DNA of 64,000 bases from Patescibacteria group bacterium (GCA_018821245.1 JAHJMO010000026.1:15518-79517), one strand, 5' to 3'; counted from the first letter of the stretch, positions 26,751 to 37,901 are shown. Made by a program: numbers and translations. The notes: a model not told the origin generated them from the sequence alone.

Positions 26751-27197
26751 ATGAAATGTCCATATTGCAATCATAACGACACTGACGTTATCGAGACGCG
26801 CGACAGCGAGGATCTGCGAGTTACCAGAAGGAGGAGGTACTGCGCGAAATGCGAAAAAAGGTTTACCACGTATGAACGGATTGAAAGTGTTCCGTTGACG
26901 GTTATCAAAAAGGACGAGCGCAGAGAAACATTTGACAGAGAAAAGCTTAAGCGAGGTATTTTGAGAGCCAGCGGTAAGACAAAAATTACAGCAGTTGACG
27001 TGGACCGCATCGTTGACGAAGTTGAAAGAGAGCTGATTTCCGGAGACTCAACCGAAGTAAAAAGCAAGCAGATTGGGCAATTAGTAGCCAAGAGGCTCAA
27101 GAAATTGGATAAAATTGCCTACATTAGATTTGCCAGCGTGTTTCGTCGTTTTCTGGACATAGAAGATTTTGAAAAGGAAGTGAAAAAATTGCTGTAA
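26751..27197 (+). CDS. nrdR: Transcriptional repressor NrdR
   Basis: MKCPYCNHNDTDVIETR...YCAKCEKRFTTYERIE zinc ribbon followed by an ATP-cone. Confidence 0.95.
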   Translation: MKCPYCNHNDTDVIETRDSEDLRVTRRRRYCAKCEKRFTTYERIESVPLTVIKKDERRETFDREKLKRGILRASGKTKITAVDVDRIVDEVERELISGDSTEVKSKQIGQLVAKRLKKLDKIAYIRFASVFRRFLDIEDFEKEVKKLL

Positions 27198-27225: not shown

Positions 27226-29343
27226 ATGGTAAAAAAGACAATTACCAAAATTAAAAAGCGAAGCGGTCGGATTGTTAAGTTTAATCCGCTAAAAATCGTC
27301 AACGCGATTGAAAAGGCATTTAAGGCTATTGGTGAAAAGGATGGGGCAAGAGTCAAGGTATTGGCAGACAAAGCTGTCAAGAAACTTGAAGAGCGGTACG
27401 ATGGGAAGATTATTCCTCAGGTTGAAGAGATCCAAAATATTATTGAAGAGGTCTTAATGCAACACTGCCATTATGATGTGGCTCGGGCCTATATTTTATA
27501 CAGAGATCTTAAGAATCGCGTTCGTGATATTCACTCTTTGATTGACTCGGACGAACTCGTCGGCGATTATCTTTCCAAACTTGATTGGCGCGTCCGGGAA
27601 AATTCCAACATGGCCTATTCTCTTCAGGGGTTAAACAATCATGTCTCCTCGGTGGTTTCTGCCAATTATTGGCTTAACAAGATTTATCCCCCTCAGATTA
27701 GACAAGTCCATGTTGATGGCGATCTTCATATTCATAATTTACAGATGTTGGCAGCCTATTGCTGTGGTTGGGATTTAAAGGATCTTTTAGTCGGGGGTTT
27801 CGGGGGAGTTCCTGGCAAGATTGAGTGTAAACCGCCAAAGCATTTTCGGACTACATTAGGGCAGTTGGTTAATTTTTTTTATACGCTTCAGGGGGAAATT
27901 GCCGGCGCGGTGGCAGTTTCTAATTTTGATAGCCTTCTCGCACCTTTTATCGCCTTTGATGGTCTTTCCTATTCAGAAGTAAAACAATCTCTTCAAGAAT
28001 TTATTTTTAACATGAATGTCCCCACCAGGGTAGGTTTTCAAACGCCCTTTTCTAATGTTACCCTTGATCTTATTATTCCTGACTTTTTGGCCAAAGAACC
28101 GGTGATTATCGGAGGCATTCCACAAGGTAAAACGTATGAAGAGTTTCAAAAAGAAGTTGATGTATTCAACAAAGCCTTTGCCGAAGTGATGCTTGAAGGA
28201 GATGCGAAGGGGCGAGTTTTTACTTTTCCCATTCCCACCTATAGTATAACCCGCGATTTTAATTGGGATAATCCGATTTATAAAGGAATTTGGGAAATGA
28301 CCCGCAAATACGGCATTCCTTATTTTTCCAATTTTGTCAATTCGGATATGAAACCGGAAGATGTCAGGAGTATGTGCTGCCGGTTGAGATTGTCAACCAA
28401 AGAACTTCAACATCGGGGAGGAGGGCTTTTTGGCGCTAATCCGTTGACTGGAAGCCTTGGTGTCGTAACTCTTAATTTACCAAGGATTGGTTATCTCGCT
28501 AAAACGAAAAAAGAATATTTTGAGAAACTTTCTCACTTGATGGACCTGGCCAAAGAAGCCCTGCTTCTCAAAAGGACAGTAGTGGAGAAGTTTACCGAAG
28601 AAGGACTTTATCCGTACTCCAAAGTGTATTTGGGGGGAGTTAAAGGCCGCTTCGGCGAATATTGGAAAAATCACTTCAACACCATTGGTTTAATTGGTAT
28701 GAACGAATCGCTTCTTAACTTTATGAACAAGAATATCGGCGAGGAGGAGGGACGGGTCTTTGCAGAAGAAATTCTGGATTTTATGCGGACTAAACTTTTA
28801 ATATATCAAAAAGAAACTGACCAGATGTTTAATCTGGAAGCCACGCCTGCCGAGGGGACTTCTTATAATTTGGCCAGACTTGACAAGAAACTGTACCCTA
28901 AGATTATCTGTGCTAATGAAAAGGAAATCGGCAAAGATCATGCAGAACCTTTTTATACTAATTCAACACATCTGCCGGTTAATTTTACCGATGATATTTT
29001 TCAAGCTCTTGACCTTCAAGATAACCTCCAGACAAAATATACCGGCGGAACGGTTTTCCATGGATTTTTAGGGGAAAGCTTGCCGGATACGGTCGCCGTT
29101 AAAACCATGGTAAAAAAAATTGCCGAGCATTATCACCTTCCTTATTATACCTTAACCCCCACCTTTAGCGTTTGTCCCGGTCACGGTTATCTTAAAGGGA
29201 AACAGGATACATGTCAGGAGTGCGGCAAAACGTGTGAGGTTTGGTCAAGAATTGTTGGCTACTTACGACCGGTTGTTCAGTGGAATGTTGGGAAACAGGT
29301 GGAATTTGCAGAAAGGAAGACTTACCGGATTAAAACAACCTAA
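27226..29343 (+). CDS. nrdD: Anaerobic ribonucleoside-triphosphate reductase (class III) NrdD
   Basis: N-terminal ATP-cone; C-terminal Zn-ribbon CPGHGYLKG...CQECG and glycyl-radical motif RIVGYLRPV. Confidence 0.9.
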   Translation: MVKKTITKIKKRSGRIVKFNPLKIVNAIEKAFKAIGEKDGARVKVLADKAVKKLEERYDGKIIPQVEEIQNIIEEVLMQHCHYDVARAYILYRDLKNRVRDIHSLIDSDELVGDYLSKLDWRVRENSNMAYSLQGLNNHVSSVVSANYWLNKIYPPQIRQVHVDGDLHIHNLQMLAAYCCGWDLKDLLVGGFGGVPGKIECKPPKHFRTTLGQLVNFFYTLQGEIAGAVAVSNFDSLLAPFIAFDGLSYSEVKQSLQEFIFNMNVPTRVGFQTPFSNVTLDLIIPDFLAKEPVIIGGIPQGKTYEEFQKEVDVFNKAFAEVMLEGDAKGRVFTFPIPTYSITRDFNWDNPIYKGIWEMTRKYGIPYFSNFVNSDMKPEDVRSMCCRLRLSTKELQHRGGGLFGANPLTGSLGVVTLNLPRIGYLAKTKKEYFEKLSHLMDLAKEALLLKRTVVEKFTEEGLYPYSKVYLGGVKGRFGEYWKNHFNTIGLIGMNESLLNFMNKNIGEEEGRVFAEEILDFMRTKLLIYQKETDQMFNLEATPAEGTSYNLARLDKKLYPKIICANEKEIGKDHAEPFYTNSTHLPVNFTDDIFQALDLQDNLQTKYTGGTVFHGFLGESLPDTVAVKTMVKKIAEHYHLPYYTLTPTFSVCPGHGYLKGKQDTCQECGKTCEVWSRIVGYLRPVVQWNVGKQVEFAERKTYRIKTT

Positions 29344-29349
29344 GACCTC

Positions 29350-30063
29350 ATGCTTATCAAAGGCCTACAAAAAACAACCTTGCTCGATTACCCTGGAAAA
29401 GTTTCCTGTATCGTGTTTGTCGGCGGTTGCAACTTCCGCTGCCCCTTTTGTCATAATTCTGATTTAGTTTTGGAGCCACAAAAATTACCCACTATCGCAG
29501 AAGATGATTTTTTTAACTTTATAAAGACAAGAGTCGGGCTTTTAGATGGGGTGGTTATCACCGGTGGCGAGCCCACTCTTTACTCTGATCTTTCCCGGTT
29601 TATGAAAAAAGTAAAAGGCTTGGGTTTTTTGGTTAAATTGGATACCAATGGGAGTAATCCGGAGATGGTGAAAGAATTGATAAAAGATAGATTAGTGGAT
29701 TATATAGCAATGGACCTGAAGGGGCCGCTAAAGAAATATTACAAATATATTGGACAAAGTCAAAATCACGGTCGTAATGCAGAACATATTGAGACGAGTA
29801 TAAAGATTATTTCGGAAAGCAGAGTGGAGTTTGAATTAAGGACCACGGTGGTGCCGACGCTACACACGAAGAAAGACTTACTAGAGATGGCAAAGCAGCT
29901 AAATAATATTGGTAATGTTAAGTGGTATCTTCAGCAATTCAGTCCAAAACAATGTTTGGATCCAGGGTTTGAGAAAATTAAGCCATACCCAAAGAGTTTT
30001 TTTGAGGATTCACTATCCGAGATTAAAAAATATTTGTCGACAACATTTTTAAGGGGTGTTTAG
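29350..30063 (+). CDS. nrdG: Anaerobic RNR activating enzyme NrdG (radical SAM)
   Basis: CNFRCPFCHN radical-SAM cluster motif; directly follows nrdD. Confidence 0.85.
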   Translation: MLIKGLQKTTLLDYPGKVSCIVFVGGCNFRCPFCHNSDLVLEPQKLPTIAEDDFFNFIKTRVGLLDGVVITGGEPTLYSDLSRFMKKVKGLGFLVKLDTNGSNPEMVKELIKDRLVDYIAMDLKGPLKKYYKYIGQSQNHGRNAEHIETSIKIISESRVEFELRTTVVPTLHTKKDLLEMAKQLNNIGNVKWYLQQFSPKQCLDPGFEKIKPYPKSFFEDSLSEIKKYLSTTFLRGV

Positions 30064-30123: not shown

Positions 30124-30159
30124 ACTTAATAACAAAACGGTTGAATGATTTGTAGATTT

Positions 30160-30714
30160 ATGAATATCTATACCCGCGCCGGCGACAAAGGATTTACTTC
30201 TATTTTTGGTGGGAAGCGAGTTTTGAAATGCCACGAGCTTGTGGATACATATGGGTTCATAGACGAGCTAAATAGTTGGGTGGGGTTGATAATTTCACAA
30301 CTTAATAAAAACGATGAAACCCGATTTTTTGTAGAAGTTCAGAAGCAACTGCTTGCTATTGGAAGTAGTCTGGCCGGCTGGAAGGGTTTGAAAAAAGAAT
30401 TAGTAGAAAAACAAATCAAGAAGATGGAGATCAAAATAGATTTGATGGAAAAAACTCTTCCTACGATAAAAAATTTTGTTCTTCCAGGCGGATCACGCGT
30501 GGGATCAATAGTTCATATTGCCAGAAGTATTTGCCGTAGGGCCGAACGACAAACCGTTTCCTTGGCACAGAAACAAATAATACAACCGGAGATCATCAAA
30601 TACCTGAATCGCCTGTCGGACTTGCTTTTTGTTTTCGCACGGTTTATAAACAGTCAGGGCGGCGTCACCGAAGTCGTTTGGTCTGGAGACGCGTCCACAG
30701 AAAAGAAACGGTAA
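30160..30714 (+). CDS. PduO-type ATP:cob(I)alamin adenosyltransferase
   Basis: N-terminal IYTRAGDKGFTSIFGG matches the PduO/MMAB ATR signature (iYTrtGDkGeTsl); about 185 aa. Confidence 0.8.
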   Translation: MNIYTRAGDKGFTSIFGGKRVLKCHELVDTYGFIDELNSWVGLIISQLNKNDETRFFVEVQKQLLAIGSSLAGWKGLKKELVEKQIKKMEIKIDLMEKTLPTIKNFVLPGGSRVGSIVHIARSICRRAERQTVSLAQKQIIQPEIIKYLNRLSDLLFVFARFINSQGGVTEVVWSGDASTEKKR

Positions 30715-30715
30715 A

Positions 30716-30870
30716 GATAAGAGGAATCCAGTGTAAATCTGGGGCTGTGCCGCAACGGTAGCCCTGTCGATGTCGTTTTACGACATAATGACCGGGGAGC
30801 CCGGAACTCATCTTTACCAAAAACAATCCCGAGCAGGAGAACTACGCGTAAGCGGAGAATGGAAAAATCT
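30716..30870 (+). promoter_or_regulatory. Cobalamin (B12) riboswitch aptamer
   Basis: GAGGAATCCAGTGTAAATCTGGGGCTGTGCCGCAACGGTAGCC aligns almost base-for-base with the conserved core of the E. coli btuB leader (GGGAAUCCAGUGCGAAUCUGGAGCUGACGCGCAGCGGUAAGG). Downstream helices GTCGTTTTACGAC and CCGGGGAGCCCGG, and a B12-box-like AATCCCGAGCAGGAG. Confidence 0.7.
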
Positions 30871-30943
30871 ACAGAATCACTAACGTACGAATAGGCAACG
30901 AGTATTCGTTCGTAGAGGTCTTTCGTAGATTTTGACATAGGAT

Positions 30944-30973
30944 CCCTCTCGGGAAAGAGAGGGTTTTTTATTT
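30944..30973 (+). terminator. Intrinsic terminator (likely riboswitch expression platform)
   Basis: CCCTCTC-GGGAAA-GAGAGGG followed by TTTTTTATTT; ends 9 nt before the ATG at 30982 with the SD AGAGGA inside/after the U-tract. Confidence 0.7.
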
Positions 30974-30981
30974 AGAGGAAT

Positions 30982-32925
30982 ATGCCATTTGCACGCGCAG
31001 AACTACCGGGTATGGGGCCACAATCATCAGGATGTTCCTGTTCTGTTGATACCGGTCTTTGGGTGAACTTATATAACGAAATTTATGATGATGTAGCAGA
31101 AAAAATGAAACAGACAGGATTGTTTTTTAACGAAGAACACGTAAAACACGAAGCGAGTAAACGATTCATGTTGCATGTTTACCTGCCAGACATAAAGAGT
31201 GTTGTTAAAGAGTGGAGAGGCGACAAGGTGATGGACGGGACAGTATATGACGTGACTAATCATGGACTGGAGATAGTATGGAAAGGTGAGAGAATAACTG
31301 CGGAGTATGAATTTGTTCTGAAGCGTCGCTCAATGGGCCTGGAAGATCCAGATGAGACACGCACGTTCTACAGAGCGCAAAAGAAAATTCTCGCCTCACC
31401 GAATGCAGATGTGTGGTTTCCGGTACACGAAAAAGCAGACGGAGAAGACCGCATACGGTATGCGGCCCACTGGGTGCGGGACGGCAATCGCGTACGCGCG
31501 GAAACGCACCGTATAGCAGGTGACCGGGATTTAAGCCTAAAAGAAGCGCGTCAGGTCATACGAGAAAAGGTCGGCTCATATGCGCCGCATGAGACAAGCA
31601 AGACAGATGCGTCGTTTGTGTTTTCCAACATTCAGGAGGCGGATCATAGGAGGAAAACCTTGCAAGCGCAATATGATCACAACATAAAACAGCAGAAAGA
31701 TATCATTTCACCACAGGATATTGACATAAAGATGGTTCACGTCGAAAAAATATACAACCCCAACCGTCAAGTTGATGCGTATCCGGCCGAACATCGGGTA
31801 ATTCGTGATGCAGCCGACACTTTATTACATTCTTCTCAACGTATAACAAAAGACACTACGACAGCGAGTGTAGCGTTTGCTTCTTTTTTGCGTGAATCGT
31901 TCAGGAAAAAAAAGAGAATTGATGCCCGAAGTACCATAAAAAATATTGAGAGCAGGCGACAGCAGAAAGCAAAAGAAAAGTTCATATCACAGAAAATTTT
32001 GTCGTTCTTTCGTCAATCGCAACCAGAAAGACCGGAAGGAAAAATTCGCCACAAGGTAGCCCACTGGATGCGTCGTTTAGAAAACAACGTGGACACACAG
32101 CATGTTGTTCATGCCGTAGCGAACATGTCAGCTGGTATAAGAAAGAAAATTGTGTTGTTGAGTGATATAGTTTCAAAATTTTTTCCTTGGACGAGGGGCG
32201 CGACAGGAACATTGGAAGGCGGAGCTGCAAAACGCAGGACACAATCTATAAAGGAGAAACAAGGAGAGAGGGAAAGAGAGTTTAAAAAAGCCGGTTGGTT
32301 TATAAAGCTGTTCAAAAGAGAGAACGATAAGCAAGCAGTAGAGGAACATTGGAATATTATCTGCAAAGTGCAACCGTTGAAGGCAGAAAAAATATCGCCG
32401 TTTTACACAATGCTTCGTGCGCTGGCTGCAAAGCTTCAAATATTTCCCGTCGCTTCCAAGCGGGAGGGAATAGAAATTACCACACAACAGGTCAAAGAAA
32501 AACAAGAGCTGATGTCAGAAGAGATGCTTCCGGAAGACAATCACCTTGTTCGGGAGAAGTCAATAGATATGTTTGAAACAACAAGCGACTTTTTTGTTTC
32601 AGCTCTCTTATGGTATGTATTGTATGAAGCAGATGTAGTCAATTTCGACGCGCAGAACCCCAGTCTTGTTGATGAGAAAAATATTAATGTATCGATACAT
32701 CAATATAAGACAGAAAAATTGGTGCAGAGTACAGCAGGTGGAAATTGGATTCTGTTTTCTATTATTTGGTATCTGGCGATGATCCGCGAACAAGGGAAAA
32801 GACAAGGCGTGAAACAAAAGAAAAAAGGAGGATCGAAGAAAAAGACGATTATTTGGGATAGAAACACAACAAACCCACCGGCGATACTTCCGCAACACAA
32901 TATAATATTTGTTTTTCGTTCGTGA
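30982..32925 (+). CDS. Hypothetical 647-aa protein, highly charged, two C-terminal TM helices
   Basis: Long ORF immediately after the riboswitch and terminator; K/R/E/Q-rich; hydrophobic segments FFVSALLWYVLY and NWILFSIIWYLAMI near the C-terminus; no known domain recognised. Confidence 0.5.
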   Translation: MPFARAELPGMGPQSSGCSCSVDTGLWVNLYNEIYDDVAEKMKQTGLFFNEEHVKHEASKRFMLHVYLPDIKSVVKEWRGDKVMDGTVYDVTNHGLEIVWKGERITAEYEFVLKRRSMGLEDPDETRTFYRAQKKILASPNADVWFPVHEKADGEDRIRYAAHWVRDGNRVRAETHRIAGDRDLSLKEARQVIREKVGSYAPHETSKTDASFVFSNIQEADHRRKTLQAQYDHNIKQQKDIISPQDIDIKMVHVEKIYNPNRQVDAYPAEHRVIRDAADTLLHSSQRITKDTTTASVAFASFLRESFRKKKRIDARSTIKNIESRRQQKAKEKFISQKILSFFRQSQPERPEGKIRHKVAHWMRRLENNVDTQHVVHAVANMSAGIRKKIVLLSDIVSKFFPWTRGATGTLEGGAAKRRTQSIKEKQGEREREFKKAGWFIKLFKRENDKQAVEEHWNIICKVQPLKAEKISPFYTMLRALAAKLQIFPVASKREGIEITTQQVKEKQELMSEEMLPEDNHLVREKSIDMFETTSDFFVSALLWYVLYEADVVNFDAQNPSLVDEKNINVSIHQYKTEKLVQSTAGGNWILFSIIWYLAMIREQGKRQGVKQKKKGGSKKKTIIWDRNTTNPPAILPQHNIIFVFRS

Positions 32926-32943
32926 TATGATGAAGATATTCTT

Positions 32944-33405
32944 ATGAACAATCTGCCCGATGATACTCAAATTCGCGCGAACAATACTCCGCCGGGGACT
33001 AACAACACGGCTTCGCAGACGGCGCCATCCGCCGGAGGCGCGTTTCTTAAGGAAGTTGAGAGGCCTTCCGCGGTTTCTTCTGAGGTGTCGATACGCCCCG
33101 CCACAGCAGAGACAGAATTACCGAAAGAGGTAGCGTCGGCAGGAGTGACGTTGAGACCCACAAGTGTCCCGATTCCGCCGAAGCTATCGCAAATGGGTGT
33201 TAAGCCTGCGGGAAACAATGTACCCACGCAGCCCAAGGCAACAACTGTCGCCCTGCCGCTTACCGATGACCAGATCGCTCAAGGGCTCCATCAGGGAATA
33301 ATGAGCTCATGGAGATGGCTTGCACAGTGGTGTCTTCGCCGCCTGAAACAATTACACGTTGGACTGAAAGCAATGCACGGGAAGTTAACAAGGGTTCGCG
33401 CGTAA
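32944..33405 (+). CDS. Hypothetical Pro/Thr/Ala-rich protein
   Basis: Low-complexity 153-aa ORF with a C-terminal amphipathic W/R-rich helix; stop TAA 3 nt before the next ATG (translationally coupled). Confidence 0.4.
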   Translation: MNNLPDDTQIRANNTPPGTNNTASQTAPSAGGAFLKEVERPSAVSSEVSIRPATAETELPKEVASAGVTLRPTSVPIPPKLSQMGVKPAGNNVPTQPKATTVALPLTDDQIAQGLHQGIMSSWRWLAQWCLRRLKQLHVGLKAMHGKLTRVRA

Positions 33406-33407
33406 CC

Positions 33408-35756
33408 ATGTCAGAACAATTATTAGATCTTACCTATCGTTTGGAGATGTTTGGAATAAGTCTCCTGTTTATCGCCTTGTTTCTGGCGGGGATGGCGCTT
33501 CTGGCCTACGGCGTGTTTTTGCTGTGGAAATACCGCGACAGAGAAAAGCAATCGCTTGAGTACGCGCTTCTTCAGGTGGCGGTGCCGCGCGACAATGAAA
33601 TAAAAATAGACGCATCCGAGCAAATGTTTGCAAGTCTGCATGGTATATATCACGGTGGTTTTTGGTCGTTTCTTACGCCGTCTCCGCATCTGTCGTTTGA
33701 GATTGTGGCGAAAAAAGAAGATATCCGGTTCTATATTTCTGTTCCGCGCAAATTTACGGATTTGGTCGAAAAACAAATTCACGGCGCTTATCCCGGAGCG
33801 GATATAAGGACAGTGGATGAGTATTCTATTTTTTCCGAAAAAGGCAATGTAGCCTTTGCAGCACTGCGACTGAAAAACCCAGACTATTTGCCTATCCGCA
33901 TCTTTCGGGATCTGCCGGTTGATCCTCTTTCGTCTATTACATCTGTTCTTGCCAAAATGCAGGAGGGTGAAGGAGCGGCAATTCAAATACTCGTCCAGCC
34001 CACGGGAGGAAAATGGCGAAACATAGGAAGGTCATATATTTCCAAGGTGAAGAAAAATGAGGCAAACCCGGAAAAAGCAAGCTTTAAAGTGGATCAAAAG
34101 TCCCTGGAGGCGATAGAACAAAAAACCAGCAAACCTGGCTTCAACGTCGTTGTCAGGATCGTTGTGTCTTCTGGGACGAAGGAATCGGCAGACATTCATT
34201 TGGAGAACATCCTTTCCTCGTTCTACCAGTTTACATCGGATCATAATGCATTTACCAAGGTCAAGCACCCCATAAAAAAATTATTCATGCTGGATTTTAT
34301 CTACAGGTATTTTCCGATTTGGAATTTTCCGTTCTTTCGTCAATATAGCGTGCTTAATAGTGATGAGTTGGCTACGGTATACCATTTGCCGAATAAATTC
34401 GTAGAAACGCCGCACGTTTTTTGGTTGAACGCCAAGCGTGCGCCAGCCCCATCACAAATCCCCTCAAGCGGGCTGTTTATAGGTGCTTCGCAATACCGAG
34501 GAGTTGACCGCCCGATTTACGTAGGCGACGACGACCGAAGGCGCCATACATATATCATTGGTAAGACAGGAACAGGTAAAACACAACTTCTGGAAGAGTT
34601 GGTTATGCAGGATATTTCCGCTGGTCGGGGGGTAGCTGTCATAGATCCGCATGGAGACCTGATCGACGGAATATTGTGCCGTATGCCGCCGGAGCGGGCA
34701 GAAGATGTAATCTATTTTGACCCGTCCGACACCGAGCGACCCATGGGGCTTAACATGCTTGAGTCATACACAGAGGAACAGAAGCATTATGTGGTAACGT
34801 CGATTGTCGGGCTTATGTACAAGTTGTATGATCCGATGAAAACAGGCATCATCGGCCCGCGTTTTGAGCACGCCATCAGGAATGCGATGCTCACGGTTAT
34901 GTGTGAGCCGGGGAATACATTTGTCGAAGTAGTCCGGGTGCTCACAGACAGTTCATTCGTTCAGGAATTGCTTCCCAAAGTGGACGATCCGGTTATTCGC
35001 CGTTATTGGACTGACCAGATTGCGCAAACCGCTGATTTTCATAAGTCCGAGGTATTGGACTATATCGTTTCGAAATTCGGCCGGTTCGTGACCAATAAAC
35101 TCATGCGCAACATCATCGGCCAGTCTAAATCATCATTCGATTTCCGTAAAGTTATGGATGAGGGCAAGGTGTTGCTGGTAAATTTGGCAAAGGGGAAAAT
35201 CGGTGAGGAGAATAGCAATTTCTTGGGTCTTATTATCGTTCCAAAGATTCTGATAGCCGCCATGAGCAGGCAGGAAGTGGCAGAAGAAAAACGGCGCGAC
35301 TTTTACCTCTATGTCGATGAGTTTCAGAATTTCGCAACGCCGGACTTTGCCCAGATTCTTTCAGAGGCCAGAAAGTATAAGCTCAACCTGATCGTTGCTA
35401 ACCAGTTTATCGGTCAGATGGAGGAAGAAGTAAAGAATGCTGTATTTGGTAACGTTGGGACACTCATCGCGTTCCGCGTGGGTGTGACGGACGCTAACTA
35501 CCTGCAGCATGAGTATCAGCCGACGTTTAATGAAATCGACCTTATCAATATCGATAAGTACAACGCATATGTCAAAACTATCGTGAATAATGAACCGGTT
35601 AAACCGTTTAGCCTGGATCTTACGAAAGACATGGGGAGGATCTATCAAACCCGCAATCCGCAGGTAGCCAAAGCAATTATTCAACTGTCGCGCCTGAAGT
35701 ACGGCAGGTCCAGGGAGTTGATCGAGGCGGAAATTGCGCATCGCGCGCGTTTATAG
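33408..35756 (+). CDS. VirD4/TraG/TraD-family (type IV coupling protein-like) membrane ATPase
   Basis: N-terminal TM helix; Walker A IGKTGTGKT; AVIDPHGDL (TraG/TrwB-type); Walker B FYLYVDEF; C-terminal TraD/TraG-like region. Confidence 0.6.
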   Translation: MSEQLLDLTYRLEMFGISLLFIALFLAGMALLAYGVFLLWKYRDREKQSLEYALLQVAVPRDNEIKIDASEQMFASLHGIYHGGFWSFLTPSPHLSFEIVAKKEDIRFYISVPRKFTDLVEKQIHGAYPGADIRTVDEYSIFSEKGNVAFAALRLKNPDYLPIRIFRDLPVDPLSSITSVLAKMQEGEGAAIQILVQPTGGKWRNIGRSYISKVKKNEANPEKASFKVDQKSLEAIEQKTSKPGFNVVVRIVVSSGTKESADIHLENILSSFYQFTSDHNAFTKVKHPIKKLFMLDFIYRYFPIWNFPFFRQYSVLNSDELATVYHLPNKFVETPHVFWLNAKRAPAPSQIPSSGLFIGASQYRGVDRPIYVGDDDRRRHTYIIGKTGTGKTQLLEELVMQDISAGRGVAVIDPHGDLIDGILCRMPPERAEDVIYFDPSDTERPMGLNMLESYTEEQKHYVVTSIVGLMYKLYDPMKTGIIGPRFEHAIRNAMLTVMCEPGNTFVEVVRVLTDSSFVQELLPKVDDPVIRRYWTDQIAQTADFHKSEVLDYIVSKFGRFVTNKLMRNIIGQSKSSFDFRKVMDEGKVLLVNLAKGKIGEENSNFLGLIIVPKILIAAMSRQEVAEEKRRDFYLYVDEFQNFATPDFAQILSEARKYKLNLIVANQFIGQMEEEVKNAVFGNVGTLIAFRVGVTDANYLQHEYQPTFNEIDLINIDKYNAYVKTIVNNEPVKPFSLDLTKDMGRIYQTRNPQVAKAIIQLSRLKYGRSRELIEAEIAHRARL

Positions 35757-35813
35757 CCGGTCGTTGCCAAACTCCTTCTTTACAAAATTTACCAATGCGG
35801 TATTCTACATTTC

Positions 35814-37169
35814 ATGATTGTTTATATCAGCAACGTATCAGAAGACGTATGGCCGTTTATTAGCTCCATATCCCAGGCGCAGGCGCGTGAGTTTGAAATT
35901 CAGGAGAATGCCAATCTGGCAGAGCGCGACCTTTTTTCGTTCCCTGGCGAGGATCACTTTCTTTTCGTCTCTCCCCGGTCTATCAGCCGGACCTTTCTGG
36001 ATTATTACATAGGATTATTCGGTAATAAGCATCTTTCTGTCTCAACGCCCAAGGTCCATACAGGAGTTATTTGTGAGGATATTCTGGCGGATGACGATGT
36101 CATGGATGAAATAGCGATTGCCGCAAACGGGGCCAAGCGATTAACACTTGTTTCCTACACCGCCTCACCACAGTTTTTGGCGCTTGTGTCGGAACTTCGA
36201 AAGAAAGGTTTTAACGTGTACACTCCTGAAGCACCGGAGCAGGAGGACGCATGGACGGTAAACTTTTTCGGCAGCAAGTCCGGGATACGTCAGCTTGCGC
36301 AGAAAAGTGCGGCAGTTGAACCGGACTTCGTCATGGCGGACGGCTTGGTTTGTTCGGGTATAGGAGACGCGGCGAAAATCGCAGCAAAAAAATATATTCG
36401 CGAAAAAGGCGTTGTCGTCAAAACCAATAAAGGGCATTCAGGCGCAGGAGTACTCATTTTCCGGCAGGGAGATTTGCCCGAGAATTACGATGAGTGCGAG
36501 GAACAGATAAAAACCACGCTTTCCCGTGACGGGTATTGGGAAAAATTCCCAATTGTCATTGAGAGTTTTGTAAAAGAAAACCGTGCGGTGGCCGGAGGAT
36601 TTCCAAATGTTGAGTTTAAGATTGCCAAACACGGTGAAGTGGAGTTCCTCTACTACTGCGCGCTTAGGGTGACGCCGGAGGGGGTATTTAAGGGGATAGA
36701 AATTCAAGATGAAGCAGTGTCGGATAAGCTCGGAGCACGCATGATGGATACGGGATTCTATGTAGGCGAGCAATATGCCTCTTACGGATATCGGGGATAT
36801 TTTGACGTGGACTTTGTCGCCAGTCGAAACGGACAACTGTATGTGACGGAGTCCAATACGCGGCGGACAGGGGGAACGCACGTGTATGAAACAACAAAAG
36901 CTCTATTTGGGAAAAACTTTATGACCGAGGTATATACATTGTCAAACAATATCTATCCATTGCCGAAACGGAAACAGATTTTTTTGGAAAATCTTTTAAA
37001 CGCGCTTTCGCCGATACTGTTTGACAAAAAAAGCAAAGAAGGTTTGATCGTCGCTTCTGAGCACATCTTAAACCAGGGGGCTTTTTCCTACATCATCTAC
37101 GGCCAGACGAAAAAGCGCGCTCTTGCCATCGAGGAAAAAATGGAAGAGATTGTACAAAAGTTAGTCTAA
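35814..37169 (+). CDS. ATP-grasp fold protein
   Basis: KGHSGAGV (P-loop-like), ...E-x-N-x-R (VTESNTRRTGG) catalytic loop typical of ATP-grasp ligases; 451 aa. Confidence 0.45.
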   Translation: MIVYISNVSEDVWPFISSISQAQAREFEIQENANLAERDLFSFPGEDHFLFVSPRSISRTFLDYYIGLFGNKHLSVSTPKVHTGVICEDILADDDVMDEIAIAANGAKRLTLVSYTASPQFLALVSELRKKGFNVYTPEAPEQEDAWTVNFFGSKSGIRQLAQKSAAVEPDFVMADGLVCSGIGDAAKIAAKKYIREKGVVVKTNKGHSGAGVLIFRQGDLPENYDECEEQIKTTLSRDGYWEKFPIVIESFVKENRAVAGGFPNVEFKIAKHGEVEFLYYCALRVTPEGVFKGIEIQDEAVSDKLGARMMDTGFYVGEQYASYGYRGYFDVDFVASRNGQLYVTESNTRRTGGTHVYETTKALFGKNFMTEVYTLSNNIYPLPKRKQIFLENLLNALSPILFDKKSKEGLIVASEHILNQGAFSYIIYGQTKKRALAIEEKMEEIVQKLV

Positions 37170-37234: not shown

Positions 37235-37306
37235 GCGCCCGTAGCTCAGCGGAAGAGCGCGTGTCTTATAAACACGAGGTGCTTGGATCGTCACCAAGCG
37301 GGCGCA
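37235..37306 (+). tRNA. tRNA-Ile (anticodon UAU, reads AUA)
   Basis: Cloverleaf: acceptor GCGCCCG/CGGGCGC (7 bp), D-arm GCTC/GAGC, anticodon stem CGTGT/ACACG with loop CTTATAA (anticodon TAT), 5-nt variable loop, T-arm CTTGG/CCAAG, discriminator A, no encoded CCA. T-loop ATCGTCA is non-canonical (A54/T58), so a tRNAscan check is needed. Confidence 0.6.
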
Positions 37307-37307
37307 C

Positions 37308-37343
37308 AATATTAAACAAATTAACAATTAACAATTAACAATG
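37308..37343 (+). repeat. Tandem heptamer array AATTAAC x4 between tRNA 3' end and the idi start codon
   Basis: attaaac aaattaac aattaac aattaac aATG; the last unit supplies the idi ATG context. Confidence 0.75.
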
Positions 37344-37901
37344 ATCGAGTTAGTTATATTAGTAGATGAGCAGAATAACCAGATTGGCACGGCCGCGAAA
37401 GATACAGTGCACACAAAACATACTCCTTTACATCGCGCGTTTTCATTATTTCTGTTTAACAGTAAAAAAGAATTATTGATCACCCAACGGGCAAAAACAA
37501 AAAAAACGTTCCCCGGTGTCTGGACCAATACGGTTTGCGGCCATCCTGCGCCAGAAGAATCGATTCTGGACGCGGCACGACGCAGACTAAAGGAAGAATT
37601 GGGGATTGTTAGAACAACTAAAACGAGGCCTGGCCTCGGAAGGAGCGACAATACGCTCCCGGCGATTACTGAAGTAACTCAATATAGGTATCGTTTTGCA
37701 GACAAAAACGGTACCGTCGAAAACGAAATCTGTCCGATTTTGGTTACTTACGCAGACATTGATCCTAAGCCAAATCCATTGGAAATCGATGATTGGAAGT
37801 GGATGCCATGGAATGAATTTCTTAAAGATATTAAAACGAATAAAGACAAATATTCCCCTTGGTGCCGCGAAGAAGCGCAAATCCTTGCCCCCTTTATTTA
37901 A
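37341..37901 (+). CDS. idi: Isopentenyl-diphosphate delta-isomerase, type 1 (Nudix)
   Basis: LHRAFSLFLFN ... TFPGVWTNTVCGHP matches the IDI-1 signature (TNTCCSHP) and Nudix fold. Confidence 0.85.
   Translation: MIELVILVDEQNNQIGTAAKDTVHTKHTPLHRAFSLFLFNSKKELLITQRAKTKKTFPGVWTNTVCGHPAPEESILDAARRRLKEELGIVRTTKTRPGLGRSDNTLPAITEVTQYRYRFADKNGTVENEICPILVTYADIDPKPNPLEIDDWKWMPWNEFLKDIKTNKDKYSPWCREEAQILAPFI

What the first reader, a model, noticed from the sequence alone, without database searches (positions are those of the whole stretch)
30982..37169. B12-riboswitch-controlled operon: 647-aa charged protein with two C-terminal TM helices, Pro/Thr-rich protein, VirD4/TraG-like ATPase and ATP-grasp enzyme. 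Candidate uncharacterised membrane system
Four co-directional, tightly spaced genes (3-nt and 57-nt gaps) follow the riboswitch. Gene 1 (647 aa) has no recognisable domain, is extremely K/R/E/Q-rich and ends in two TM helices. Gene 2 is a low-complexity Pro/Thr/Ala-rich 153-aa protein. Gene 3 is a membrane-anchored FtsK/TraG/VirD4-type coupling ATPase (Walker A GKTGTGKT, VIDPHGDL, Walker B YLYVDEF). Gene 4 is an ATP-grasp ligase-like protein. No relaxase, VirB4, integrase or pilin is present, so this is not a standard conjugative module. Cobalamin-dependent regulation of a translocase-like ATPase is unprecedented to my knowledge. One speculative reading is a novel corrinoid acquisition machine for a scavenging lifestyle; alternatively a B12-conditioned DNA/protein export system.
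Basis: inference. Interest (0 to 1): 0.75.

Follow-up and report, generated by a model that had tools for sequence, protein, structure and literature searches.

The report
B12 riboswitch gating one orphan gene
A genuine vitamin-B12 riboswitch in a Patescibacteria (CPR) chromosome switches off one fast-evolving gene of unknown function, while the translocase-like ATPase and ATP-grasp genes behind it carry their own conserved promoter-like elements and belong to a widespread CPR module that is not tied to B12.

Summary
A cobalamin riboswitch (30698-30829, Rfam 38.1 bits) is followed by four co-directional genes. The reading as one B12-controlled four-gene membrane system is only partly supported.

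- **Riboswitch:** It is a transcriptional OFF switch. A conserved motif, CCCGAGCAGGAG, can pair with the 5' arm of an intrinsic terminator (30944-30969) that ends 12 nt before gene 1.
- **Gene 1:** It belongs to a fast-evolving family of about 164 clusters with no Pfam or PDB relative. In every locus examined it lies behind this riboswitch, between pduO and gene 2.
- **Genes 2-3:** This small Pro-rich protein plus DUF8128/T4CP-like ATPase pair recurs across CPR (at least 7,966 clusters). A conserved extended -10 element (TGATATGAT, 32923-32931) overlaps gene 1's stop codon. In three relatives the riboswitch and its cargo gene are inverted and point away from genes 2-3.
- **Gene 4:** This ATP-grasp ligase is clade-specific and has its own conserved TTTACA-N16-TATTCT element.
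- **Gene 1's "TM helices":** They are only 12-14 hydrophobic residues long.

The real lead is gene 1, an uncharacterised B12-regulated protein family. A B12-controlled translocase is not supported. Interest is moderate.

The parts
30145..30714 (+). pduO-type cob(I)alamin adenosyltransferase. It is the upstream context gene, and its last codons overlap the start of the riboswitch.
   Evidence: Pfam Cob_adeno_trans 9.8e-52. The same gene lies upstream of gene 3 in 19 of 79 loci.
30698..30829 (+). Cobalamin riboswitch aptamer.
   Evidence: Rfam RF00174 at 38.1 bits against a gathering score of 31.5. The orthologue in L001 scores 35.1 bits. Custom model R1 scores 86 bits here and finds the element in 18 other loci. 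The P4-like helix covaries.
30828..30839 (+). Switching motif CCCGAGCAGGAG. Here it is the 5' strand of an antiterminator. In relatives with translational control it also holds the Shine-Dalgarno sequence.
   Evidence: It is conserved across loci. Its duplex with the terminator 5' arm is -17.1 kcal/mol against -5.8 +/- 2.5 for 200 shuffles. It lies 4-7 nt before the AUG in L007 and L084.
30846..30943 (+). Structured insert (a long hairpin) enclosed by the antiterminator helix.
   Evidence: Minimum-free-energy fold with z = -4.4. It is conserved in L001. Inserts of other sequence occupy the same place in L008 and L086.
30944..30969 (+). Intrinsic terminator (CCCTCTC-GGGAAA-GAGAGGG plus T6), the OFF arm of the riboswitch.
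   Evidence: Terminator scan. The same hairpin plus U-run directly before the start codon is seen in L001, L003, L006, L008, L010, L022, L023 (twice) and L085.
30974..30979 (+). Shine-Dalgarno-like AGAGGA sequence of gene 1.
   Evidence: Read from the sequence. L001 and L008 have GGAGGA at the same place.
30982..32925 (+). Gene 1, the riboswitch cargo. It is a 647-aa member of an uncharacterised, fast-evolving CPR family. It has an N-terminal alpha/beta domain (about residues 20-220), a charged variable linker, and a conserved C-terminal module: two short hydrophobic helices, a K-rich stretch, and a terminal motif (consensus GVIFAxxS; IIFVFRS in this protein).
32923..32931 (+). Extended -10 promoter-like element TGATATGAT for genes 2-3. 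It overlaps gene 1's stop codon.
   Evidence: A TGNTANNAT motif lies 5-12 nt upstream of the gene 2 ATG in 34 of 77 loci. The background density of the motif is 0.00035 per nt.
32944..33405 (+). Gene 2: a 153-aa Pro/Thr/Ala/Ser-rich protein with a C-terminal W/R/K amphipathic helix. It is the conserved partner of gene 3.
   Evidence: P+T+A+S is 37% of residues. A similar small protein directly precedes gene 3 in at least 35 of 74 loci, including Dojkabacteria and loci whose records are titled Saccharibacteria.
33408..35756 (+). Gene 3: one N-terminal hydrophobic segment of about 30 aa, then DUF8128, then a T4CP/VirD4-like P-loop ATPase.
   Evidence: Pfam. DUF8128 on the orthologues. PDB sequence hits to TrwB and DotL cover the P-loop only. 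More than 600 matches among species-representative genomes. At least 7,966 clusters. phrog_5156 at 1e-94.
35779..35806 (+). Promoter-like TTTACA-N16-TATTCT element for gene 4.
   Evidence: Promoter scan. A like element at like spacing is seen in L001, L005, L006 and L085, more weakly in L007 and not in L008.
35814..37169 (+). Gene 4: an ATP-grasp peptide-ligase-like protein, specific to the Gottesmanbacteria-like clade.
   Evidence: PDB 8ynd at 4.6e-8 over nearly the full length, and PGM1. NCBIfam BesA at 1.6e-8, below cut-off. Present in only 6 of 79 loci.

Best explanation
The region is a mosaic of at least three transcription units on a Patescibacteria chromosome. It is not one operon.

**Unit 1: riboswitch and gene 1.**
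- A cobalamin riboswitch sits at the 3' end of an nrdR-nrdDG-pduO block.
- Inferred mechanism without B12: the motif CCCGAGCAGGAG pairs with the 5' arm of the downstream hairpin. This forms an antiterminator and transcription runs into gene 1.
- Inferred mechanism with B12: the aptamer captures that motif, the hairpin plus U-run terminates transcription 12 nt before gene 1, and gene 1 is OFF.
- Gene 1 is therefore made when B12 is scarce.
- It belongs to an uncharacterised, rapidly diverging family that always occupies the slot pduO - riboswitch - (DUF4430 - DUF6580) - gene 1 - gene 2.
- My best guess is that gene 1 is an accessory of corrinoid acquisition or handling, peripherally anchored to the membrane by its short C-terminal hydrophobic helices. 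This function is inferred, not shown.

**Unit 2: genes 2-3.**
- This is a CPR-wide module: a small Pro-rich protein plus a DUF8128/T4CP-like ATPase.
- It starts from its own extended -10 element, probably as a nearly leaderless mRNA.
- It is B12-independent, apart from possible read-through from gene 1.

**Unit 3: gene 4.**
- A clade-specific ATP-grasp ligase with its own -35/-10 element.
For: **Riboswitch**
- Rfam hits.
- Custom covariance model hits in 19 loci, always in this neighbourhood.

**OFF-switch platform**
- Terminator directly before the start codon.
- Complementarity between motif and terminator arm far above shuffles in the window, L001, L010, L022 and L023b, and marginally above them in L003 (5 of 200 shuffles). 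The pairing in L003 covaries (CGGGUGA / UCACCCG).
- The same motif holds the Shine-Dalgarno sequence where no terminator exists.

**The cargo is gene 1**
- The riboswitch lies directly upstream of gene-1-family genes in the window, L001, L003, L006, L008, L083, L085 and L086/87. In L007 and L084 it precedes DUF4430-DUF6580-gene 1.
- The riboswitch is inverted together with a cargo gene in L029, L032 and L041, and duplicated in front of one in L023.

**Genes 2-3 are autonomous**
- Extended -10 element in 34 of 77 loci at a fixed distance from the ATG.
- No Shine-Dalgarno sequence before gene 2, whereas gene 1 has one.
- The gene 2 - gene 3 pair is found without any riboswitch across CPR.

**Gene 4**
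- Conserved -35/-10 element and patchy distribution.
Against: - No transcript data exist. Promoters and termination are inferred from sequence and conservation only.
- There is no terminator between gene 1 and gene 2, and the gaps are 18 nt and 2 nt. Low B12 could therefore still raise expression of genes 2-3 by read-through.
- In L010 and L022 the genes from the riboswitch through to gene 3 are packed almost without gaps, which would allow long co-transcripts.
- The pduO-X-gene 2-gene 3 order is conserved widely in Microgenomates, and in L039 pduO lies between gene 2 and gene 3. This could reflect a functional link rather than inherited synteny.
- A B12-related role for gene 1 rests on regulation and position alone. 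Neither sequence nor fold shows a corrinoid-binding motif.
- This genome has nrdDG where all relatives have the B12-dependent nrdJ. No B12-dependent enzyme was found among the ORFs checked in the window (about 25 ORFs scanned with Pfam; tblastn with NrdJ found nothing).
Confidence: 0.72

Rival explanations
1. All four genes form one B12-repressed operon encoding a new membrane machine, for corrinoid acquisition or B12-conditioned export, that is driven by the T4CP-like ATPase.
For: - The genes are co-directional with gaps of 18, 2 and 57 nt and no terminator between them.
- A termination-type riboswitch acts on everything that is co-transcribed.
- pduO, and often nrdJ and DUF4430/DUF6580, lie next to genes 2-3 in many Microgenomates (19 of 79 loci).
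- In L039 pduO lies between gene 2 and gene 3.
Against: - Conserved promoter-like elements lie before gene 2 and gene 4.
- In L029, L032 and L041 the riboswitch points away from genes 2-3.
- About 65 of 79 gene 3 loci have neither a riboswitch nor pduO nearby.
- Gene 4 is present in only 6 of 79 loci.
- Gene 1 is restricted to one clade.
- Gene 3 homologues are ubiquitous in Patescibacteria, and the homologue in Ca. S. epibionticum was not essential for epibiotic growth (PMC12102498).
Confidence: 0.13
2. Gene 1 is a substrate or adaptor of the gene 2 - gene 3 ATPase module. Under B12 starvation it would be delivered to or through the membrane by way of its conserved basic and hydrophobic C-terminus, for example to take corrinoids from a host cell.
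For: - Gene 1 is always directly upstream of genes 2-3.
- The most conserved part of the family is the C-terminal module: hydrophobic helix, K-rich stretch, GVIFAxxS end. This recalls the C-terminal, positively charged T4SS signals (from general knowledge of T4CP substrates).
- The N-terminal motif GPSxFARF is conserved.
- Rapid evolution is typical of proteins that face a host.
Against: - There is no experimental or co-evolutionary evidence.
- Genes 2-3 exist in most CPR without gene 1.
- The window holds no T4SS channel genes.
- Adjacency can be explained by conserved synteny.
Confidence: 0.1
3. The riboswitch and gene 1 are decaying relics in a lineage that replaced the B12-dependent NrdJ with NrdDG, so neither has a function any longer.
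For: - The window has nrdD/nrdG where all relatives have nrdJ.
- Neither DUF4430/DUF6580 nor NrdJ was found in the window.
Against: - The aptamer, switching motif and terminator are intact and nearly identical in L001.
- dN/dS is 0.23 for pduO and 0.38 for gene 1.
- Gene 1 is equally divergent in lineages that keep nrdJ: L003 and L007 share 26% identity.
Confidence: 0.05

Closest known systems
Cobalamin riboswitches (Rfam clan CL00101: RF00174 and AdoCbl-II RF01689) with intrinsic-terminator expression platforms
   Same: - The aptamer scores above the gathering threshold.
- A conserved 3' motif alternates between an antiterminator and capture by the aptamer, as in an OFF switch.
- In relatives the element controls B12-uptake-type genes (DUF4430, DUF6580) and pduO.
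   Different: - It is embedded at the 3' end of pduO, inside a long co-directional gene string.
- A structured insert of about 100 nt lies between the aptamer and the terminator.
- Its cargo is an uncharacterised protein family.
Type IV coupling proteins (VirD4 / TrwB / TraD / TraG)
   Same: - Gene 3 has Walker A and B motifs.
- Pfam TrwB_AAD_bind, T4SS-DNA_transf and TraG-D_C score above their cut-offs.
- It has an N-terminal membrane segment.
   Different: - A DUF8128 domain of about 300 aa lies between the membrane segment and the ATPase.
- There is one hydrophobic segment rather than two TM helices with a loop.
- No relaxase, VirB4 or channel genes are nearby.
- The gene is chromosomal, appears vertically inherited, and is found across CPR.
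- All NCBIfam T4CP models score far below their cut-offs.
Orphan T4CP homologues of Patescibacteria (PMC12102498)
   Same: The paper reports 5,713 VirD4-like T4CPs in 2,918 genomes, of which only 148 lie near virB4. It states that exaptation to another function cannot be ruled out. Gene 3 fits this description.
   Different: The paper does not describe the small partner protein (gene 2), the DUF8128 domain, the extended -10 element or the adjacency to a B12 locus.
PGM1 / BesA-type ATP-grasp peptide ligases
   Same: Gene 4 aligns over nearly its full length with 8ynd (4.6e-8), and in its C-terminal part with PGM1 and BesA.
   Different: - Scores are far below the family cut-offs.
- The substrate is unknown.
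- There is no biosynthetic cluster around it.
phrog_5156: hypothetical proteins of SPO1-like Bacillus phages and phage G gp156
   Same: They are full-length homologues of gene 3, DUF8128 region included (1e-94 to the profile; 20-23% identity over 81-91% of the length in the best hits). In phage SP-10 a small membrane protein precedes the gene and overlaps it.
   Different: They are phage-encoded and lack the N-terminal hydrophobic segment. Their function is unknown.

Membership tests
Cobalamin riboswitch (Rfam RF00174 / clan CL00101) | Covariance-model score at or above the gathering threshold | tested here: met
   38.1 bits against 31.5. The L001 orthologue scores 35.1 bits. Relatives hit RF01689 at 37.5-46.1 bits against 36.5.
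Cobalamin riboswitch (Rfam RF00174 / clan CL00101) | Conserved helices supported by covariation | tested here: met
   8 of 13 predicted pairs show compensatory changes in a 10-sequence alignment. The outer helices were poorly aligned and were not assessed.
Cobalamin riboswitch (Rfam RF00174 / clan CL00101) | Expression platform that couples the aptamer to gene expression | tested here: met
   A terminator lies 12 nt before the gene 1 ATG. Antiterminator complementarity is -17.1 kcal/mol against -5.8 +/- 2.5 for shuffles. A variant that sequesters the Shine-Dalgarno sequence occurs in L007 and L084.
Cobalamin riboswitch (Rfam RF00174 / clan CL00101) | Binds a corrinoid and changes expression in response | not testable with these tools
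   Needs in-line probing, ITC or a reporter assay.
Type IV coupling protein (VirD4/TrwB/TraD) | P-loop NTPase of the FtsK/HerA superfamily with Walker A and B motifs, matching T4CP profiles | tested here: met
   Pfam PF10412 at 33.3 bits (cut-off 20.5), PF02534 at 27.1 (20.1) and PF12696 at 26.4 (22). TrwB and DotL score 6e-5 over the P-loop.
Type IV coupling protein (VirD4/TrwB/TraD) | Reaches the curated equivalog or subfamily cut-offs for T4CP families | tested here: not met
   NCBIfam SXT_TraD scores 63.7 against 366, and CD1115 scores 38.5 against 250.
Type IV coupling protein (VirD4/TrwB/TraD) | Encoded with a relaxase and/or a VirB4-type T4SS | tested here: not met
   None found among the ORFs scanned with Pfam in the 64-kb window. 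Neighbourhood clustering of 79 loci shows Xer-type recombinase, FtsB-like, pduO and nrdJ genes, and no T4SS genes.
Type IV coupling protein (VirD4/TrwB/TraD) | N-terminal TM domain directly followed by the nucleotide-binding and all-alpha domains | tested here: inconclusive
   There is one hydrophobic segment (residues 8-42) followed by about 300 aa of DUF8128 before the P-loop. The structure was not modelled.
ATP-grasp ligase | Sequence match to ATP-grasp enzymes over the catalytic domains | tested here: met
   8ynd_A at 4.6e-8 over residues 41-438, and PGM1 at 3.2e-6. The Pfam models are below cut-off (PreAtp-grasp 24.2 against 27.5).
   Conserved promoter-like elements lie before gene 2 and gene 4. 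The riboswitch is inverted away from genes 2-3 in L029, L032 and L041. Gene 4 is present in only 6 of 79 loci.
Integral membrane protein (gene 1, 'two TM helices') | Hydrophobic segments long enough to span a bilayer (about 18-20 residues) | tested here: not met
   No 19-residue window has a Kyte-Doolittle mean above 1.5. The segments are 12-14 residues long, and this holds across the family.

The most novel reading that the evidence does not exclude
Gene 1, and perhaps the Levybacteria-type Zn-ribbon family that fills the same riboswitch-controlled slot and is once fused to PduO, would be a new class of corrinoid-salvage component specific to CPR bacteria. It would be made only under B12 starvation. 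It could work together with the adjacent gene 2 / T4CP-like ATPase module to take corrinoids from a host cell.
Probability: 0.2. Interest if true: 0.7.

Novelty: new member of a known kind. Interest (0 to 1): 0.42.

Why it matters
Genes that sit behind B12 riboswitches have repeatedly led to new corrinoid transporters, binding proteins and B12-independent isozymes. Here the riboswitch marks two structurally unmatched protein families in CPR bacteria, which are reduced-genome organisms thought to depend on other cells for cofactors. One family is the gene 1 type and the other is the Levybacteria Zn-ribbon type.

Learning what these proteins do would show how such organisms obtain or handle B12.

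The analysis also removes a tempting but unsupported claim, that a B12-controlled type IV coupling ATPase exists. It adds three concrete features to the unexplained orphan T4CP of Patescibacteria: a conserved small partner protein, a DUF8128 domain shared with SPO1-like phages, and an extended -10 element consistent with a near-leaderless mRNA.

Tried and rejected
1. **Homology between gene 1's N-domain and the Levybacteria-type cargo family.** hhalign gave a probability of 0.1-0.2% in three runs. Only the order of secondary-structure elements is similar, so homology is not claimed.
4. **AFDB50 search.** The library was not available.
5. **Defence-system reading.** PADLOC gave only generic HerA/mad8-type ATPase similarity for gene 3, and nothing for genes 1, 2 and 4.
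6. **Mobile-element reading.** No relaxase, VirB4 or integrase was found among the ORFs scanned with Pfam in the 64 kb (about 25 of the 64 ORFs of at least 130 aa).
7. **B12 uptake genes or NrdJ elsewhere in the window.** tblastn found nothing.
8. **Literature.** Searches for DUF8128, and for 'cobalamin riboswitch' together with 'Candidate Phyla Radiation', returned nothing.
9. **A promoter for the riboswitch inside pduO's 3' end (TTGCTT-N17-TATAAA).** It is present, but it cannot be separated from the coding constraint of the conserved LSDLLF..ARFIN motif.
10. **Structure of gene 3.** It was not modelled, because the 120 homologues returned were all 79% or more identical to it.

Full report
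**1. What is there**

The window is a chromosomal stretch of a Patescibacteria (CPR) genome. Gene 1 is identical to NCBI KJ618_03400, a 'Patescibacteria group bacterium' hypothetical protein. The gene 3 orthologues are labelled Gottesmanbacteria.

The + strand carries these features in order:

| Feature | Coordinates |
|---|---|
| nrdR | 26751-27197 |
| nrdD | 27226-29343 |
| nrdG | 29350-30063 |
| pduO-type adenosyltransferase | 30145-30714 |
| Cobalamin riboswitch (Rfam, 38.1 bits against a gathering score of 31.5) | 30698-30829 |
| Gene 1 | 30982-32925 |
| Gene 2 | 32944-33405 |
| Gene 3 (most likely start, by comparison with orthologues) | 33408-35756 |
| Gene 4 | 35814-37169 |
| tRNA-Ile(UAU) | 37235-37307 |
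| NUDIX gene | 37341-37901 |

The other ORFs scanned with Pfam in the 64 kb are housekeeping genes: PBPs, GuaA, GroEL, MetRS, BipA and TsaD. None is a relaxase, VirB4 or integrase. About 25 of the 64 ORFs of at least 130 aa were scanned.

- The gaps are 18, 2 and 57 nt.
- Gene 3 is 782 aa.
- Gene 1's 'TM helices' are only 12-14 hydrophobic residues long. No 19-residue window has a Kyte-Doolittle mean above 1.5.

**2. The riboswitch is real and is an OFF switch aimed at gene 1**

A syntenic contig, L001, is about 80-83% identical to the window at the nucleotide level. It keeps the aptamer (35.1 bits), the linker and the terminator almost unchanged.

A strong intrinsic terminator lies at 30944-30969 (CCCTCTC-GGGAAA-GAGAGGG plus T6). 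It ends 12 nt before the gene 1 ATG, and an AGAGGA Shine-Dalgarno sequence lies between them.

Just 3' of the aptamer is the motif CCCGAGCAGGAG (30828-30839), which is conserved across relatives.
- In the window it can pair with the terminator's 5' arm at -17.1 kcal/mol. Shuffled motifs give -5.8 +/- 2.5, and 0 of 200 shuffles reach the observed value.
- This pairing is also the minimum-free-energy structure of the isolated platform.
- The complementarity is likewise above every shuffle in L001, L010, L022 and the second L023 copy. It is marginal in L003, where 5 of 200 shuffles reach it, but the pairing there covaries (CGGGUGA / UCACCCG).
- In L007 and L084 there is no terminator, and the same motif supplies the GGAG a few nucleotides before the AUG.

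So one switching strand serves either as an antiterminator or as the Shine-Dalgarno sequence. That is the expected design of a ligand-OFF riboswitch. The ligand response itself was not tested.

**3. What the riboswitch controls, judged by comparison**

I fetched 80 loci around gene 3 homologues from species-representative genomes, plus five loci around distant gene 1 homologues. I scanned all of them with a covariance model built from ten riboswitch copies.

Many Microgenomates share the layout nrdR - nrdJ (B12-dependent class II RNR) - [DUF4430 + DUF6580] - pduO - [variable gene X] - gene 2 - gene 3.

The riboswitch appears in 19 loci, always in this block, in one of three positions:
- Before DUF4430-DUF6580(-pduO): L010, L022 and L023. 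In L027 it directly precedes pduO.
- Before DUF4430-DUF6580-gene 1: L007 and L084.
- Directly before X: the window, L001, L003, L006, L008, L019, L083, L085, L086/87, and a second copy in L023.

In L029, L032 and L041, X and its riboswitch are on the opposite strand and point away from genes 2-3.

The riboswitch thus follows the B12-uptake genes and X, not genes 2-3. About 65 of the 79 gene 3 loci have no riboswitch nearby.

**4. Gene 1**

- The word-indexed search found only three relatives.
- An exhaustive HMMER profile search found 164 clusters, mostly of 500-900 aa.
- The best-conserved part is the C-terminal module: F.FA..W..L, then PWILLSIIWYLAMIREQG, then a K-rich stretch, then a terminal GVIFAxxS.
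- About 15 members also share the N-domain, with motifs GPSxFARF, CxC, FPVH and IR..W.
- Against L001, gene 1 is 52% identical (dN 0.36, dN/dS 0.38). Gene 3 is 96.7% identical and gene 4 is 92.7%. Gene 1 is thus a real gene that evolves about 20 times faster than its neighbours.
- The same holds in lineages that keep nrdJ: L003 and L007 share 26% identity.
- AlphaFold2 gives a confident alpha/beta N-domain (pLDDT 82.7, pTM 0.71).

In Levybacteria-type genomes, slot X holds a different family. It has the motifs SPPGPKEEGYGDYGF and AGSCGS and a C-terminal Zn ribbon. It comprises 72 clusters and has no Pfam hit.
- It is fused to PduO in P0030.
- In L013 the called ORFs leave no intergenic space for a riboswitch between pduO and this gene.
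- It also folds confidently (pLDDT 85) with no PDB match.
- Profile comparison does not link the two families. Only the order of secondary-structure elements is similar.

The function of gene 1 is therefore unknown. A role in corrinoid acquisition or handling is inferred from regulation and position alone.

**5. Genes 2-3 and gene 4 look like separate units**

*Gene 2.* Directly upstream of its ATG is TGATATGAT (32923-32931), which overlaps gene 1's stop codon.
- A TGNTANNAT motif lies 5-12 nt, most often 6 nt, before the ATG of the gene-2-like ORF in 34 of 77 loci.
- This holds whatever gene lies upstream, against a background motif density of 0.00035 per nt.
- That is the signature of an extended -10 promoter giving a leaderless or near-leaderless mRNA.
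- Gene 2 has no Shine-Dalgarno sequence.

*The gene 2 - gene 3 pair.* A gene-2-like protein with a Pro-rich N-terminal part and a C-terminal W..W..R..K helix precedes gene 3 in at least 35 of 74 loci. These include Dojkabacteria and loci whose records are titled Saccharibacteria.

*Gene 3.*
- It has at least 7,966 clusters at 90% identity. NCBI annotates them as 'type IV secretion system DNA-binding domain-containing protein'.
- It passes the Pfam T4CP domain cut-offs. It fails every NCBIfam T4CP cut-off.
- It has a DUF8128 insertion and is not near any T4SS gene.
- The literature already reports 5,713 VirD4-like T4CPs in 2,918 Patescibacteria genomes. Only 148 are near virB4. The homologue in Ca. 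S. epibionticum was not essential for epibiotic growth, and exaptation to another function is considered possible (PMC12102498).

*Gene 4.*
- It has a TTTACA-N16-TATTCT element (35779-35806). A like element is seen in L001, L005, L006 and L085, more weakly in L007 and not in L008.
- It occurs in only 6 of 79 loci.
- It resembles PGM1/BesA-type ATP-grasp peptide ligases.

**6. Verdict**

The riboswitch-gene 1 pair is a solid, conserved regulatory unit with an uncharacterised cargo. The idea that B12 controls a translocase-like ATPase system is not supported as a general or designed feature. At most, read-through from gene 1 adds B12-dependent transcription to genes 2-3 in this clade, because no terminator separates them.

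The promoters, termination and read-through are all inferred from sequence and conservation. No expression data were available.

Novelty lies in the cargo families, and in new descriptive features of the orphan T4CP module. Interest is moderate.

Noticed in passing
window 27226-30063: This genome has the B12-independent class III RNR genes nrdD/nrdG exactly where every relative examined has the B12-dependent class II nrdJ. These relatives include L085, which is otherwise fully syntenic. The genome nevertheless keeps pduO, the riboswitch and gene 1.
   Followed up: partly
window 33408-35756; L088 3854-6385 (Bacillus phage SP-10): Gene 3, including its DUF8128 region, has full-length homologues at 20-23% identity in SPO1-like Bacillus phages and in phage G (gp156). 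It matches phrog_5156 at 1e-94. In SP-10 a 114-aa membrane protein precedes the gene and overlaps it, which echoes the gene 2 - gene 3 pair.
   Followed up: partly
L003-L082, downstream of gene 3 (about 10.4-13 kb in locus coordinates): A Xer-type tyrosine recombinase (34 of 79 loci, mostly on the opposite strand) and an FtsB/DivIC-like small protein (23 of 79 loci) recur just downstream of the T4CP-like gene. This raises the possibility of an FtsK-like role in chromosome segregation or cell division.
   Followed up: no
L019 6319-7446; L022 6138-7529; L023 5753-7201; L029 6326-7216 (-); P0030: A second uncharacterised riboswitch-cargo family fills the slot between pduO and gene 2 in Levybacteria-type genomes. 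It has the motifs SPPGPKEEGYGDYGF and AGSCGS and a C-terminal Zn ribbon, and some members have a C-terminal TM tail. It is fused to PduO in one protein and has no PDB structural match.
   Followed up: partly
L023 3988-4100 and 5583-5716: One locus carries two cobalamin riboswitches. One precedes DUF4430-DUF6580-pduO, and the other precedes the Zn-ribbon cargo gene.
   Followed up: yes
window 30982-31020 and family alignment A7: A short N-terminal motif, GPSxFARF (reduced to PFARAE in the window protein), is conserved at the extreme N-terminus of gene-1-family proteins, ahead of the folded domain. Its meaning is unknown.
   Followed up: no
window 37235-37307: A tRNA-Ile gene with anticodon UAU directly follows gene 4. 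A tRNA gene occupies the same position after gene 3 or gene 4 in the relatives scanned with Rfam (L001, L003, L006-L008, L010, L019, L023; on the opposite strand in L022).
   Followed up: no
L008 1079-4651; L019 1394-4807; L086 3305-6862; L019 16075-16275: The nrdJ genes of several relatives are about 1,140-1,190 aa long, and that of L086/L087 has recorded Intein_splicing and LAGLIDADG hits. L019 also holds a group I intron (Rfam, 66.5 bits).
   Followed up: no
window 30625-30653: A TTGCTT-N17-TATAAA promoter-like element lies inside the 3' end of pduO, about 50 nt upstream of the aptamer. It is conserved across the clade, but this cannot be separated from the coding constraint of the conserved LSDLLF..ARFIN motif.
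   Followed up: partly
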